64,000 nucleotides of DNA from an uncultured Acidobacteriota bacterium (GCA_963804995.1 CAWDSK010000006.1:672001-736000), one strand, 5' to 3'. Numbered from the stretch's first letter, positions 36,117 to 50,919 are shown. The notes: generated from the letters alone by a model not told the origin. Program-made: numbers and translations.

Positions 36117-36156
36117 GGATATCGCAGACCCTAAAGTGCACGGGTCTGCGCCAGCC
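36117..36156 (+). repeat. REP copy of the RAYT-flanking family (unoccupied)
   Basis: GGATATCGCAGACCCTAAAGTGCACGGGTCTGCGCCAGCC, close match to 50880-50919. Confidence 0.85.
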
Positions 36157-47743: not shown

Positions 47744-48241
47744 CTAATGACTTAAGTAATCCCCTTCGTGCGGGTGTGCTTCCTCTTACCCGCCTTCCAG
47801 TGACCCACTACTCCACTCCCTGAACTGATGGGCTCCCGAGAGGCCCGGCACCCTAACCCCGGGATGAAGCTTTCAATTGATTTGTCGCCCGCTCCGACGG
47901 AGGAGTGCGTCCATGAGCAAACGACAACGGGTGTGCGTCTGCCCTCCCTGATTTTGCGAGTTTCCTGCCGCCAGCCTTATCCTGGCGGATCGCTACGTTC
48001 TTGTGTGTTAACCGACCACCAAATTATGAGCGGTGTTTACAACACTATTGAGGGAGTTGTCAAGAGTTTTTGTGGATCGTTTTTGTGAATCGCCTTTTTG
48101 AGTGGCTATGATAGCGCCAGTGGTGGCCCACTTGGCGTTTTGCGCTTTGAGTCTTAGCTTTTTTATGCCTCTTTGCTCCGCTACTTGCTCCTCATTTTGT
48201 TCCTGGGTGACCCCCTAACCTGCTGACCCCTGTACTTGGGA

Positions 48242-48292
48242 GTCTGCGATGTCCTGAAGGGACAGGTAAGAGCCAGCGGGTCACCCCAGCCG
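48242..48292 (+). repeat. 51-bp exact direct repeat of 50237-50287 (RAYT 3' end, spacer and part of REP)
   Basis: GTCTGCGATGTCCTGAAGGGACAGGTAAGAGCCAGCGGGTCACCCCAGCCG. Confidence 0.92.
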
Positions 48293-48304
48293 CAAAGGCT
48301 GGCG

Positions 48305-50217
48305 GTTGCGGTAGGGATACCGGTTACCCGGTACCCCCCGCACGGATCCGTACGTGCGCTGGTTAGCGCATACGGCTCTTATCTCGGATGTGTGGCGGCG
48401 AACCGTTGGGATGGCCAAGGATGCACAACGTGCGGAGCAGGCAACCAGCAGGCCGCAAGCTTCCCCAGTCGGTCCCAGTTGAGGCGGTGGCGTTGACTGC
48501 GTTGACGCAGTTGCGTTCGCCACAGTCGGGTCAACCGTTCCCGAAAGATTCGCAGGCGGTCGAGGTTTCCCGGTACCGCGTGATAGTTGAAGTAGCCTTG
48601 CACGACCGACCGGAGCCATTTACCCGTATCCGCGATGGGATCGTGCCGACGCTGCCGGAGTTGTTGCTTGAGTTCCTGCAACTTCCCCCGCAGGCGCTTG
48701 CTGATCGTCTTCCGCTTCACGGTAAATTGCCCCCTCCGGTTCTTCCCGCTGATATGCGTGAAGCCCAGAAAGTCGAACGTCTCCGGCTTACCTTCTCCTC
48801 TCCGTTTCCGGTAAAGTTCGGCAAACGGCCCGAACTCAATCCGGCGCGTTTTGTCAGGATGCAGTTCCAATCCAAACTTCCCCACCCGCTCCCGGAAATC
48901 CTCCAGAAAGCGGTCGGCTTCCGTCTGCGATTGGAATCCAAGGACCGTATCGTCGGCATACCGCACCACGACCACGTCTCCCCGGGCGTGCTTCTTGCGC
49001 CACGCCTGCACCCACAGGTCAAAGACGTAGTGCAGATAGATATTCGCCAGCAGGGGCGAGACCACCGCCCCTTGTGGCGTACCCATCTCCGTCTCCGACC
49101 ATTCGCCTTCCTCCCTCACCCCGGCTTTCAGCCATTTCTGGATGAGCCGGAGAATCCGGGGGTCGGCGACGCGATGCTGCACGAACTTGAGCATCCATTC
49201 GTGGGATATCGAATCGAAAAATCCACGAATGTCCGCGTCAAGAACGTAGTTCACGTGCTTCACCGTGAGCGCGTACGAGAGCGCGTCCAGCGCTTGATGC
49301 TGGCTGCATCCCGGTCGAAAGCCATACGAGAAGCCCAGAAAGTCTTCCTCGTAAATCGCATTGAGGATGGTGACCACGGCCTGTTGGACGATCTTGTCCT
49401 CCAGTGCCGCAACCCCCAACGGACGTTGCCGCCCGTCGCCTTTCGGGATATACGCCCTTCGCGAGGGCTTCGCTCGGAATGCTCCACGGTGGACCCGGCT
49501 GTGCAGATCGACGAGTCGACCTTCCAGCCCGCTTTCATACTCCTGCCACGTCATGCCGTCTACTCCCGGTGCAGCTTTTCGCTTCAAGGCGTAAAAGCTT
49601 TCCCGCAGCAGATCGACCGTTAAGTGGTGGAGCAAGGCCGTGAACTTCATCTCCCTGTGTTCCTTCGCGGCTTTCCGCACACCCGCGAGTCCCTGGGACA
49701 CGCGTGCCCCGCTCTGTGTCGGGTGCGTGTTAGGCCAACGGGTGTTCTCCTTGATCAGCGGCCTTCCCTCCTCATTCTCCGCCAACGGCTTCCCGTCTTT
49801 GTTCAAATGATTCATCGGTACTGTTCCGCTGTCCGACTCCTCGAGAGCGTGCAGGCGGGCTGTACGGCCATCGCCTTTTCCCGCCGTCCGGCCACGATCT
49901 ACGGCGGCCGGCGCCTCCGAGGTCTCCCGGTTCTCGTGCAGAAAGTGTCTAGGCGTGTCTGGGGTCTACGACTACGCAGGACTGTGCCGGAACTCGCGTT
50001 GGCGTCCCGGCCTCATGTTGCCTTCCGTTTAGTCTGAAAACGTCGGCGTCCTGATTGGACATTTTCGAAGCTCAATACCCAGCCCACCTATTCCCCTGTT
50101 TACGCTTCACCGTGCGCCTCACGACGCCCAGCGCAAAACTCGGGGCCGAGTGGATCGCTACTCCTTCCTCGTGAGAAATTTTCATTCTCTGCTTTCTGCC
50201 GGTTTATCCCGGCGCAC
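48305..50217 (-). mobile_element. Group II intron (1913 nt)
   Basis: 5' GTGCG at 50217; 34-nt domain V GAGCCGTATGCGCTAACCAGCGCACGTACGGATC (48378-48345); domain VI ending CGCAAC at 48305; joined exons rebuild an intact REP. Confidence 0.93.
48379..49815 (-). CDS. ltrA: Group II intron reverse transcriptase/maturase (no HNH endonuclease tail seen)
   Basis: APGVDG, RPLG, SYGFRP, GTPQG, RYADD, FDFLGF, GYFNYH; stop abuts domain V; start uncertain. Confidence 0.93.
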   Translation of the reverse strand: MNHLNKDGKPLAENEEGRPLIKENTRWPNTHPTQSGARVSQGLAGVRKAAKEHREMKFTALLHHLTVDLLRESFYALKRKAAPGVDGMTWQEYESGLEGRLVDLHSRVHRGAFRAKPSRRAYIPKGDGRQRPLGVAALEDKIVQQAVVTILNAIYEEDFLGFSYGFRPGCSQHQALDALSYALTVKHVNYVLDADIRGFFDSISHEWMLKFVQHRVADPRILRLIQKWLKAGVREEGEWSETEMGTPQGAVVSPLLANIYLHYVFDLWVQAWRKKHARGDVVVVRYADDTVLGFQSQTEADRFLEDFRERVGKFGLELHPDKTRRIEFGPFAELYRKRRGEGKPETFDFLGFTHISGKNRRGQFTVKRKTISKRLRGKLQELKQQLRQRRHDPIADTGKWLRSVVQGYFNYHAVPGNLDRLRIFRERLTRLWRTQLRQRSQRHRLNWDRLGKLAACWLPAPHVVHPWPSQRFAATHPR

Positions 50218-50275
50218 CAGACCCCCGTACTTTGGGGTCTGCGATGTCCTGAAGGGACAGGTAAGAGCCAGCGGG

Positions 50276-50827
50276 TCACCCCAGCCGATCCATACGCAGG
50301 ATCGACGCATCCTGCAAGAAGTAAAACCTCCAACTCGACCACGGCCAATCCCCCGGCGAACTAACCAGCCCGCGCTTCACCGGGTTGTTATGCATGTAGT
50401 TTAATTTCTCCTGCCGTTTCTCATCGCTGCAAATCTCGAATGGGTAGAATCGGCGCTGCCAGAGGCGGCAGTGCGACTCGTCATGGACCGTGGGTGGCAG
50501 CCGCAGGCGCGTCTGCATCTTCCGGCACCAGGGATACTGCGGGTTCTCCTGAAGTGTTTTGAGGATGCGCGTGGCCGTTTGCTCCTTCAGCCCCTTCAGG
50601 ATCACAGGAGTAGTTTCGGCGGGCTGCGGCAGGAGAAGCAAATGGAAGTGATCGGGCATCAGTACCCAACCGAGGAGCAGGAATTTAAACTCTTGCCTCA
50701 CCTCGTCGAGCCTTTGGACAAAATAGCGGCGAAAGCGGTCAGAAAGGAAGAGGGGCGCGCGCCGATAGGTGCTGGCGGTGATGAATTGGAGGTGGCCCGG
50801 GGTGTAAGTGCGCTCGTAGAATGGCAT
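50276..50827 (-). CDS. REP-associated tyrosine transposase (RAYT, HUH/Y1)
   Basis: FITAST, VLMPDHFHLL (HUH), WQRRFY, YMHNNPVKRGLV, WPWSS; flanked by inverted REPs. Confidence 0.88.
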   Translation of the reverse strand: MPFYERTYTPGHLQFITASTYRRAPLFLSDRFRRYFVQRLDEVRQEFKFLLLGWVLMPDHFHLLLLPQPAETTPVILKGLKEQTATRILKTLQENPQYPWCRKMQTRLRLPPTVHDESHCRLWQRRFYPFEICSDEKRQEKLNYMHNNPVKRGLVSSPGDWPWSSWRFYFLQDASILRMDRLG

Positions 50828-50879: not shown

Positions 50880-50919
50880 GGACATCGCAGACCCCAAAGT
50901 GCGAGGGTCTGCGCCAGCC
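50880..50919 (+). repeat. REP upstream of RAYT (unoccupied)
   Basis: GGACATCGCAGACCCCAAAGTGCGAGGGTCTGCGCCAGCC hairpin. Confidence 0.88.

What the first reader, a model, noticed from the sequence alone, without database searches (positions are those of the whole stretch)
48297..50249. Group II intron inserted in a RAYT-associated REP, with EBS1 matching the REP arm (candidate REP-homing retroelement)
Seen: removing 48305-50217 joins the minus-strand exons into GGACATCGCAGACCCCAAAGTACGGGGGTCTG|CGCCAGCC, an intact copy of the REP at 50880-50919 and 36117-36156. Seen: the intron carries a stem-loop GCGTAGTC-GTAGACCCCA-GACACGC whose loop UAGACCCC (plus strand 49961-49968) can pair with the last 8 exon nt GGGGTCTG, with one G-U pair. 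Established: EBS1/IBS1 pairing sets group II target choice; hairpin targeting is characteristic of class IIC (terminators, attC). This intron has a 34-nt domain V with an AGC triad, so it is not IIC-like. I found no EBS2 by eye and no endonuclease domain. Inference: the intron exploits a multicopy, selectively neutral target that the neighbouring RAYT keeps supplying, a three-tier RAYT/REP/intron parasitism. I know REP targeting from IS elements but not from group II introns.
Basis: partly seen in the sequence, partly recalled or inferred. Interest (0 to 1): 0.85.

Follow-up and report, generated by a model that had tools for sequence, protein, structure and literature searches.

The report
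REP-homing group II intron copy

Summary
The intron is real: 50217..48305 on the minus strand, 1913 nt, encoding an RT/maturase with no endonuclease domain. Removing it rebuilds a REP next to a RAYT gene. The genome holds 40 copies over 99% identical, and all sit at ...GGTCYG|CGC inside REP hairpins of two families.

That stretch is conserved in relatives whose exons are unrelated. The true EBS1 is CAGACU (50036-50031), in a hairpin loop that co-varies with the 5' exon across 70 junctions: 5.86 nt paired against 3.17 when permuted.

Occupancy follows the EBS1 match at position -2 and the replication strand. Of sites with GGTCTG on the G-rich strand, 26 of 52 are filled, against 2-6% in the other classes. 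This fits retrohoming by an endonuclease-less intron at replication forks.

The RT is 57% identical to the class E intron remnant on pRmeGR4b and 35% to the class D copy there.

Eight literature searches found no description of REP homing by group II introns. The scan had already flagged other copies in this genome and similar cases in other genomes.

Verdict: a new variant of a known kind. It works by ordinary retrohoming aimed at an unusual multicopy target.

The parts
48305..50217 (-). Group II intron, 1913 nt; 5' GUGCG, 3' ...CCCUACCGCAAC
   Evidence: The boundaries are fixed by 40 copies and by empty REPs.
50218..50249 (-). 5' exon half of REP-A: GGACATCGCAGACCCCAAAGTACGGGGGTCTG. It holds the 5' arm, the loop and most of the 3' arm. 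IBS1 is GGTCTG at 50223-50218.
48297..48304 (-). 3' exon half of REP-A: CGCCAGCC. IBS3 is the C at 48304.
50020..50047 (-). Domain I hairpin GCCGACG-UUUUCAGACUAA-ACGGAAGGC, whose loop holds the true EBS1 (CAGACU, 50036-50031)
   Evidence: Covariation with the 5' exon in 70 junctions. The helix has compensatory changes. Rfam places a 9-nt terminal loop here.
50054..50065 (-). Asymmetric internal loop AAAAUGUCCAAU with candidate EBS2 (UGUC, 50061-50058), which can pair with GRCG at -12..-9 in the REP loop
   Evidence: In the fixed-register test, 14 of 70 junctions pair 4 of 4. The mean was 1.69 against 1.27 +/- 0.09 when permuted, and 0 of 2000 permutations reached it. Occupancy within GGTCTG sites gave no support.
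49969..49969 (-). Probable EBS3 (G), pairing with C at +1
   Evidence: Of 23 distinct junctions: G-C 19, C-G 1, U-A 1, U.G 1, U.U 1. RNAalifold instead pairs this column with column 4, which fits 19 of 21 sequences.
49961..49968 (-).
48379..49815 (-). Intron-encoded protein, 478 aa: RT plus maturase, YADD present, no endonuclease domain
   Evidence: TIGR04416 scores 342.7 bits against a cut-off of 300.
48345..48378 (-). Domain V, 34 nt, AGC triad. The G of the triad lies opposite an A.
48307..48342 (-). Domain VI with a bulged UA. The branch A at 48312 is 8 nt from the 3' end.
50276..50827 (-). RAYT gene, 183 aa. Its stop codon ends 58 nt upstream of the intron, on the same strand.
   Evidence: NF047646 scores 117 bits against a cut-off of 80. 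Pfam Y1_Tnp.
50880..50919 (+). Empty REP-A upstream of the RAYT, inverted relative to the occupied one. Its target reads on the + strand.
36117..36156 (+). Empty REP-A copy; its target reads on the + strand
48225..48292 (-). Second tandem copy of the RAYT 3' end plus a degenerate REP (...GGGGTCAG|CAGG). It matches 50220-50287 at 95.6% and is not a target.

Best explanation
This is one copy of an active or recently active bacterial group II intron. Its RNA is IIB-like, it is most likely class E, and its protein has RT and maturase domains but no endonuclease. Its homing site is a REP element.

How it most likely works:
- After splicing, the intron RNA and its protein form a particle that reverse-splices into DNA at ...GGTCTG|CGC.
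- EBS1 (CAGACU, 50036-50031) pairs with the last six bases of the 3' arm of the REP stem.
- A G at 49969 (EBS3) pairs with the C at +1.
- UGUC at 50061-50058 (EBS2) probably pairs with GRCG in the REP loop.
- Lacking an endonuclease, the intron depends on the replication fork for priming, so it fills sites where its sense strand is the lagging-strand template.

Shown: the anatomy, the boundaries, the 40 copies all in REPs, EBS1 covariation, and the strand and -2 preferences.
Inferred: reverse splicing, priming at the fork, the role of EBS2, and protein contacts at +3..+5.
For: Copies and targets:
- There are 40 copies over 99% identical, all placed after a hairpin GCAGACCYC-loop-RGGGTCYG. The 3' exon is CGCCA in 15, CGCTAC in 24, and 1 is cut by a contig end.
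- 38 reading frames are full length and open.

EBS1:
- Across 70 distinct junctions from relatives, the loop pairs with the exon end over a mean of 5.86 nt, and 58 of 70 pair over 5 nt or more. With exons permuted the mean was 3.17 +/- 0.16, with a maximum of 3.86 in 1000 trials.
- The sister intron in G005 carries CGGACU and sits after GGTCCG-type REPs. Another lineage carries CAGAGC and sits after GCTCTG REPs.
- The helices have compensatory changes in 17 of 30 pairs.

Occupancy:
- Position -2 is T in 32 of 36 filled sites against 107 of 214 empty ones (p 7e-6).
- Filled sites lie on the G-rich strand in 30 of 36 cases, against 77 of 206 empty sites (p 2.9e-7).
- On contig C6, 14 of 31 minus-strand sites are filled and 0 of 38 plus-strand sites.
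- In the class GGTCTG on the G-rich strand, 26 of 52 sites are filled. The other three classes have 5 of 86, 3 of 56 and 1 of 55.
- None of the 247 sites in the opposite REP orientation is filled, and none of the 140 non-hairpin GGTCTGCGC sites.

Protein:
- TIGR04416 scores above its cut-off.
Against: - No splicing or mobility was observed. Laid contigs showed no joint across the intron.
- 4 of 36 filled sites read GGTCCG, which gives an A.C mismatch. In G005, 4 of 6 sites need a bulge or a mismatch in IBS1.
- EBS2 pairing here needs two G.U pairs. Within GGTCTG sites, a matching IBS2 is no commoner in filled sites (17 of 32) than in empty ones (48 of 107; p 0.43).
- Of the 41 sites outside strict hairpins that carry the full IBS2-N2-IBS1-C pattern, about 36 lie outside REPs by my reading of the list, and all are empty. 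Something beyond these RNA pairings is therefore needed.
- RF00029 is 0.8 bit under its cut-off, and the G of the AGC triad faces an A.
- GC skew is weak (at most 3%) and is only a proxy for replication direction. No origin was located.
- Relatives are not independent, so the permutation figures overstate the support.
- Several contigs end inside intron copies, so the assembly around the repeats may be imperfect.
Confidence: 0.87

Rival explanations
1. The DNA hairpin itself is recognised, as in class IIC introns or in some new way. The folded REP on single-stranded DNA would be part of the signal, not just its sequence.
For: - All 40 copies are in hairpins.
- Sites outside REPs that carry the full predicted RNA-pairing pattern are all empty. 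There are 41 outside strict hairpins, about 36 of them truly non-REP by my reading of the list.
- At least three intron lineages with different EBS1 all insert 2 nt before the base of the stem, at CTG|CG.
- The candidate IBS2 lies in the hairpin loop.
Against: - IBS1 lies inside the stem and must be unpaired to meet EBS1.
- Relatives with the same RNA architecture home into sites without a hairpin.
- Hairpin stability does not differ between filled sites (-11.96 kcal/mol) and empty ones (-11.77; p 0.87).
- Conserved REP positions at -15, -14, +3 and +5 could supply the extra specificity through the protein.
Confidence: 0.2
2. One reading: EBS1 is the loop UAGACCCC at 49961-49968.
For: The letters are complementary to GGGGTCTG of the REP-A copies.
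Against: - The stretch is conserved in relatives whose exons end in GGAGTT, ATCATT, CTGACA, ATTACA and others.
- Its supposed 5' stem strand pairs elsewhere in both the Rfam and the RNAalifold structures.
- 24 of 40 copies sit in REP-B (...GGAGGTCTG), which would pair with only 6 of the 8 bases.
Confidence: 0.02
3. The copies did not arise by retrohoming. Instead they were carried along when REPs or REP doublets were moved by the RAYT, or by duplication.
For: Three RAYT loci have an intron in a flanking REP. One pair of tandem copies lies on contig C7.
Against: - Flanks beyond about 35 nt are unrelated among the copies.
- Two REP families are used.
- Occupancy depends on the EBS1 match at -2 and on the strand.
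Confidence: 0.03

Closest known systems
Bacterial class E (IIE) group II introns, e.g. S.me.I4 of Sinorhizobium meliloti pRmeGR4b and Cl.be.I2
   Same: - The RT is 57% identical to the disrupted RT on pRmeGR4b. PMC5894124 (passage read) describes a disrupted class E intron, S.me.I4, on that plasmid. A second RT on the plasmid matches at 35%; I take it to be the RmInt1 (class D) copy that the same paper places there.
- There is no endonuclease domain.
- The RNA is compact and IIB-like, with EBS1 and EBS2 in domain Id (PMC3753933, sections read).
- Plasmid-borne relatives at 58-61% identity occur in Pseudomonas, Ralstonia and Acidithiobacillus.
   Different: - The target is a REP hairpin rather than a unique homing site. 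A Ralstonia relative sits at CCAGUA| with a matching EBS1 and no REP.
- The 5-nt domain V loop described for IIE is not seen here: the loop is 4 or 6 nt.
RmInt1 and RmInt2 of S. meliloti (class D, no endonuclease), which home into ISRm2011-2 and into the inverted repeats of ISRm17
   Same: Retrohoming into a multicopy selfish element, guided by EBS/IBS pairing, with a preference for the lagging-strand template (PMC5894124, passages read).
   Different: - Different class: the RT is 35% identical.
- The target is a roughly 40-nt RAYT-linked palindrome present in about 250 copies, not an insertion sequence.
- RmInt2 uses both inverted repeats of its target. This intron uses only one orientation of the palindrome: 0 of 247 sites in the other orientation are filled.
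Class C (IIC) introns, which insert after terminator hairpins or into attC sites
   Same: The target is a DNA hairpin motif, and the protein lacks an endonuclease (PMC4424553, passages read).
   Different: IIC introns lack EBS2, use a short IBS1 and insert after the hairpin. Here a 6-nt IBS1 is the 3' arm of the stem itself, and insertion falls 2 nt inside the stem.
REP-targeting insertion sequences (Tobes and Pareja 2006, PMC1525189)
   Same: REPs serve as landing sites for other mobile elements. Their table lists the Pseudomonas putida KT2440 group II intron as REP-associated in 2 of 9 copies (table row read).
   Different: Here 40 of 40 copies are in REPs, at one exact position, and an RNA guide explains the choice.

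Membership tests
Group II intron | Domain I structure and a 5' GUGYG end | tested here: met
   The intron starts with GUGCG at 50217. RF02005 scores 173 bits against a cut-off of 49.
Group II intron | Domain V with a catalytic triad, and domain VI with a bulged A near the 3' end | tested here: met
   RF00029 scores 39.2 bits against a cut-off of 40, E 1.6e-6, and ends at 48305. The fold gives a 34-nt domain V and a bulged A 8 nt from the end. The score lies just below the curated cut-off.
Group II intron | Intron-encoded RT/maturase in domain IV | tested here: met
   TIGR04416 scores 342.7 bits against a cut-off of 300. PDB hits are group II RTs at E 1e-41 to 1e-33.
Bacterial class E (IIE) | The protein groups with class E members | tested here: met
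   57% identity to the disrupted RT on pRmeGR4b and 35% to the second RT there. The class labels come from PMC5894124. No tree with a full class reference set was built.
Bacterial class E (IIE) | No endonuclease domain | tested here: met
   Pfam at E up to 1 gives only RVT_1 and a weak GIIM hit. The protein ends at residue 478.
Bacterial class E (IIE) | A 5-nt zeta' loop in domain V; alpha' at the tip of a stem-loop in DId3 (PMC3753933) | tested here: inconclusive
   The domain V loop here is AACC closed by U-A, or 6 nt if that pair is open. A 59% relative (L009) has GAAAG, by my reading of its sequence. Alpha' was not mapped.
Class C (IIC) | No EBS2, a short IBS1, and insertion after a terminator or attC hairpin | tested here: not met
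   EBS1 pairs with 6 nt. The family has an EBS2. Insertion falls inside the stem, and no run of T follows.
REP/RAYT system (the target) | A RAYT gene flanked by inverted REPs, and a dispersed multicopy palindrome | tested here: met
   NF047646 scores 117 bits against a cut-off of 80. REPs flank the gene at 50880-50919 and at 50249-50218 joined to 48304-48297. There are 214 empty plus about 40 filled sites in the used orientation.
Fork-dependent retrohoming of endonuclease-less introns | Bias to the lagging-strand template | tested here: met
   30 of 36 filled sites against 77 of 206 empty sites lie on the G-rich strand. GC skew is only a proxy, and no origin was located.

The most novel reading that the evidence does not exclude
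The intron exploits the REP as a folded hairpin on the lagging-strand template. EBS2 would dock on the exposed loop as a toehold. EBS1, which copies the 5' arm of the stem (CAGACU against CAGACC), would then displace that arm and take its place. This would be a structure-assisted targeting mode distinct from class IIC. It would have been kept through co-evolution of the guide sequences with REP variants in several intron lineages, and it would disarm RAYT ends by splitting their REPs.
Probability: 0.2. Interest if true: 0.75.

Novelty: new variant of a known kind. Interest (0 to 1): 0.6.

Why it matters
- A 2015 review lists three target specificities for bacterial group II introns: homing sites, terminators and attC sites (PMC4424553, passage read). 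REPs would add an abundant and probably near-neutral landing pad.
- That landing pad lets an endonuclease-less intron reach 40 copies and fill half of its best sites.
- It is a clear natural case of guide retargeting: EBS1 changes in step with REP stem variants between sister genomes.
- It shows a retroelement living on the repeats of a domesticated or selfish transposase.
- It gives a simple system for asking whether DNA secondary structure helps or hinders reverse splicing.

Tried and rejected
- **Reads.** Only contigs were available. DNA contigs from peat and sediment metagenomes cover the intron but not its unique flanks. No joint across the intron was seen. Two metatranscriptome runs hold short pieces of the intron at 95-99% likeness, which does not show transcription.
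- **Free scan for EBS2.** The mean was 4.10 against 3.96 +/- 0.08 when permuted, which is not convincing. A fixed-register test replaced it.
- **IBS2 match within GGTCTG sites.** No enrichment in filled sites.
- **Hairpin stability, filled against empty sites.** No difference.
- **Class assignment by RNA features.** Inconclusive.
- **Careful ML tree.** It did not finish, so only the quick tree was used. I left out proteins under 370 aa, identical proteins, and loci L041-L044, L113, L115 and L116.
- **Junction parsing.** My patterns parsed 78 junctions, 70 of them distinct, from the 111 loci then held. The other loci were not examined.
- **Look-ups that failed.** Accession CP003935 is not in the collection. 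PMC2525955 (Simon 2008) is not held, so its account of class E targets was not seen. Toro 2002 (Gene) was not available either.
- **Structure and complex prediction.** Not used, as they were not needed.

Full report
**What is at the coordinates**

On the minus strand an intron runs from 50217 (GUGCG) to 48305 (...CCCUACCGCAAC), 1913 nt.
- Rfam RF02005 (group-II-D1D4-6) matches 50182-49962 at 173 bits, against a cut-off of 49.
- RF00029 (domains V-VI) matches 48380-48305 at 39.2 bits, E 1.6e-6, 0.8 bit under its cut-off. Its last model position falls on 48305.
- Folding gives a 34-nt domain V and a domain VI with a bulged A at 48312, 8 nt from the end.
- The ORF 49815-48379 encodes 478 aa. TIGR04416, group II intron RT/maturase, scores 342.7 bits against a cut-off of 300.
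- Pfam finds RVT_1 and a weak GIIM hit, and no nuclease domain even at E up to 1.

The gene just upstream on the same strand (50827-50276) is a REP-associated tyrosine transposase. NF047646 scores 117 bits against a cut-off of 80.

**Boundaries and the REP**

A blastn search of the whole genome (7.55 Mb, 9 contigs) finds 40 copies at 99.0-100% identity.
- Every copy follows a hairpin GCAGACCYC-loop-RGGGTCYG.
- CGCAAC is constant before the 3' junction.
- After the junction come CGCCA (15 copies) or CGCTAC (24 copies). One copy is cut by a contig end.
- Empty REPs read GGTCTG|CGCCAGCC or GGTCTG|CGCTAC.

Two REP families are used: REP-A, as in this window, and REP-B.

The window also holds two empty REP-A copies whose target reads on the + strand, at 50880-50919 and 36117-36156. 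Folded as DNA, REP-A forms a 9-bp stem of about -10.7 kcal/mol. The insertion point lies 2 nt inside the base of the stem.

**The exon-binding sites**

Relatives at 57-93% protein identity were collected from the same genus and from other Acidobacteriota genomes. Their 5' exons differ widely.

- GUCGUAGACCCCAGA is unchanged in 17 of the 34 junctions where my pattern found it.
- Its supposed stem strand GCGUAGUC pairs with an upstream strand in both Rfam's model and RNAalifold's.

The loop of the hairpin 50047-50020 changes with the exon instead:

| Loop (EBS1) | Exon end (IBS1) |
|---|---|
| CAGACU | GGUCUG (this intron) |
| AACUUC | GGAGUU |
| AAUGAUA | UAUCAUU |
| UGUCAG | CUGACA |
| UGUAAU | AUUACA |

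Over 70 distinct junctions the pairing anchored at position -1 averages 5.86 nt, and 58 of 70 pair over 5 nt or more. With exons permuted the mean is 3.17 +/- 0.16, with a maximum of 3.86 in 1000 trials. The junctions are related, so this overstates independence. RNAalifold on 21 sequences recovers the hairpin, and 17 of 30 pairs carry compensatory changes.

EBS3 is probably G49969. Of 23 distinct junctions, 22 pair with the base at +1, counting one wobble. RNAalifold offers a competing internal pair for that column.

EBS2 is probably the four bases after CGAAAA in the internal loop, here UGUC at 50061-50058. At a fixed register, 14 of 70 junctions pair 4 of 4, and no permutation out of 2000 reached the observed mean. 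In this genome it would pair with GGCG or GACG in the 3' half of the REP loop, using G.U pairs.

**What decides which REPs are filled**

In the used orientation there are 214 empty hairpin sites GGTCYG|CGC. The other orientation of the same palindromes (GGTCYG|CGG or CGA) has 247 sites, none filled.

| Factor | Filled sites | Empty sites | p |
|---|---|---|---|
| T at -2 (pairs with the A of EBS1) | 32 of 36 | 107 of 214 | 7e-6 |
| Intron sense strand on the locally G-rich strand | 30 of 36 | 77 of 206 | 2.9e-7 |

On contig C6, 14 of 31 minus-strand sites are filled and 0 of 38 plus-strand sites.

Combining the two factors:

| Class | Filled |
|---|---|
| GGTCTG, G-rich strand | 26 of 52 |
| GGTCTG, other strand | 5 of 86 |
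| GGTCCG, G-rich strand | 3 of 56 |
| GGTCCG, other strand | 1 of 55 |

The intron has thus filled half of its best niche. If G-richness marks the leading strand, as in most bacteria (established knowledge, not tested here), the intron's sense strand lies on the lagging-strand template. That is the known preference of endonuclease-less introns such as RmInt1 (PMC5894124, passage read).

**What remains unexplained**

- None of the 140 non-hairpin GGTCTGCGC sites is filled.
- None of the 41 sites outside strict hairpins with the full IBS2-N2-IBS1-C pattern is filled. About 36 of them lie outside REPs by my reading of the list.
- Within GGTCTG sites, a matching IBS2 does not raise occupancy (p 0.43).
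- Hairpin stability does not differ between filled and empty sites.

Extra specificity is therefore needed. It may come from protein contacts at conserved REP positions (-15, -14, +3, +5) or from the hairpin itself. The data do not decide.

**Class and relatives**

- The RT is 57% identical to a disrupted RT on S. meliloti pRmeGR4b and 35% to a second RT there.
- PMC5894124 states that this plasmid carries a disrupted class E intron (S.me.I4) and one RmInt1 (class D) copy. Class E is therefore the likely class.
- Plasmid-borne relatives at 58-61% identity occur in Pseudomonas, Ralstonia, Acidithiobacillus and rhizobia.
- A Ralstonia copy sits at CCAGUA| with EBS1 UACUGG and no REP.
- The 5-nt domain V loop reported for IIE (PMC3753933, introduction read) is not seen here.

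**REP homing across lineages**

On a quick tree of 67 RTs, REP-type targets appear in at least three places:
- This intron together with the G005 sister (EBS1 CGGACU).
- A deep clade, L011/L020/L023 (EBS1 CAGAGC or UCAGG), which sits in GCGCAGAGC...GCTCTG REPs. That REP family flanks two other RAYT genes of this genome.
- Single cases L025 and L034.

Near relatives at 83-85% identity use other, non-hairpin repeats.

Three RAYT loci of this genome have an intron in a flanking REP: this one, C6:165.7k and C5:58.4k.

**Literature**

Eight full-text searches found no description of REP homing by group II introns. The nearest items were:
- A table row giving 2 of 9 REP-associated intron copies in Pseudomonas putida KT2440 (PMC1525189).
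- RAYT listed among the neighbours of group II RTs (PMC8934634, passage read).
- Class E fragments beside attC-like hairpins (PMC7923331, abstract and section 12 read).

Subscription papers (Toro 2002, Simon 2008) could not be read.

**Earlier notes of this scan**

Other agents reported the same intron family at other copies in this genome, and similar cases in other genomes. I read these only after reaching my own conclusions, and they agree with them.

Noticed in passing
window 48225-48292 (-) and 50220-50287 (-): The last bases of the RAYT gene plus its downstream REP are duplicated in tandem just after the intron, at 95.6% identity over 68 nt. The second REP is degenerate (GGGGTCAG) and is not a target.
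   Followed up: partly
L120 (G000:C1:439700-441300) and L121 (G000:C6:841300-842800): Two further, diverged domain I matches to RF02005 (114.6 and 126.5 bits) occur in the same genome. One sits after a REP-C hairpin CGCAGAGC...GCTCTG and carries EBS1 CAGAGC. My motif search found no domain V within 1.1 kb, so these are fragments or ORF-less relatives.
   Followed up: partly
L011, L017, L020, L023, L025, L026, L034 (5' ends): One sub-lineage starts with a 7-nt GAUAGCG, GAAAGCG or GUAAGCG instead of GUGCG. This is judged from where EBS1 pairing with the exon ends.
   Followed up: no
L037-L040, L053-L055, L065, L073-L076, L080-L099 and others: A large Acidobacteriaceae branch of the family sits after ...AAATCGCNATTACA|-like sites, several per genome, often just behind a short GGCGA-AAAA-TCGCC hairpin. 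This may be another repeated target.
   Followed up: no
L084:1098-4900: Two copies of one intron lie head to tail: the 3' exon of the first is the 5' end of the second.
   Followed up: no
window 48345-48378 (-): In domain V the G of the AGC triad faces an A (GAGCCG...CGGAUC). The same GGAUC was seen in most of the relatives I looked at (one, L006, reads GGGUC), so it looks like a family trait rather than damage.
   Followed up: partly
L108: A 73% identical intron lies on a contig whose record is labelled an uncultured Alphaproteobacteria genome, nested among Acidobacteriota copies in the tree. This suggests transfer or a binning error.
   Followed up: no
G000:C5:58400-58900: A second type of RAYT-like gene (27% identical) has REP-B copies in direct, not inverted, orientation on both sides. 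An intron occupies the upstream one.
   Followed up: partly
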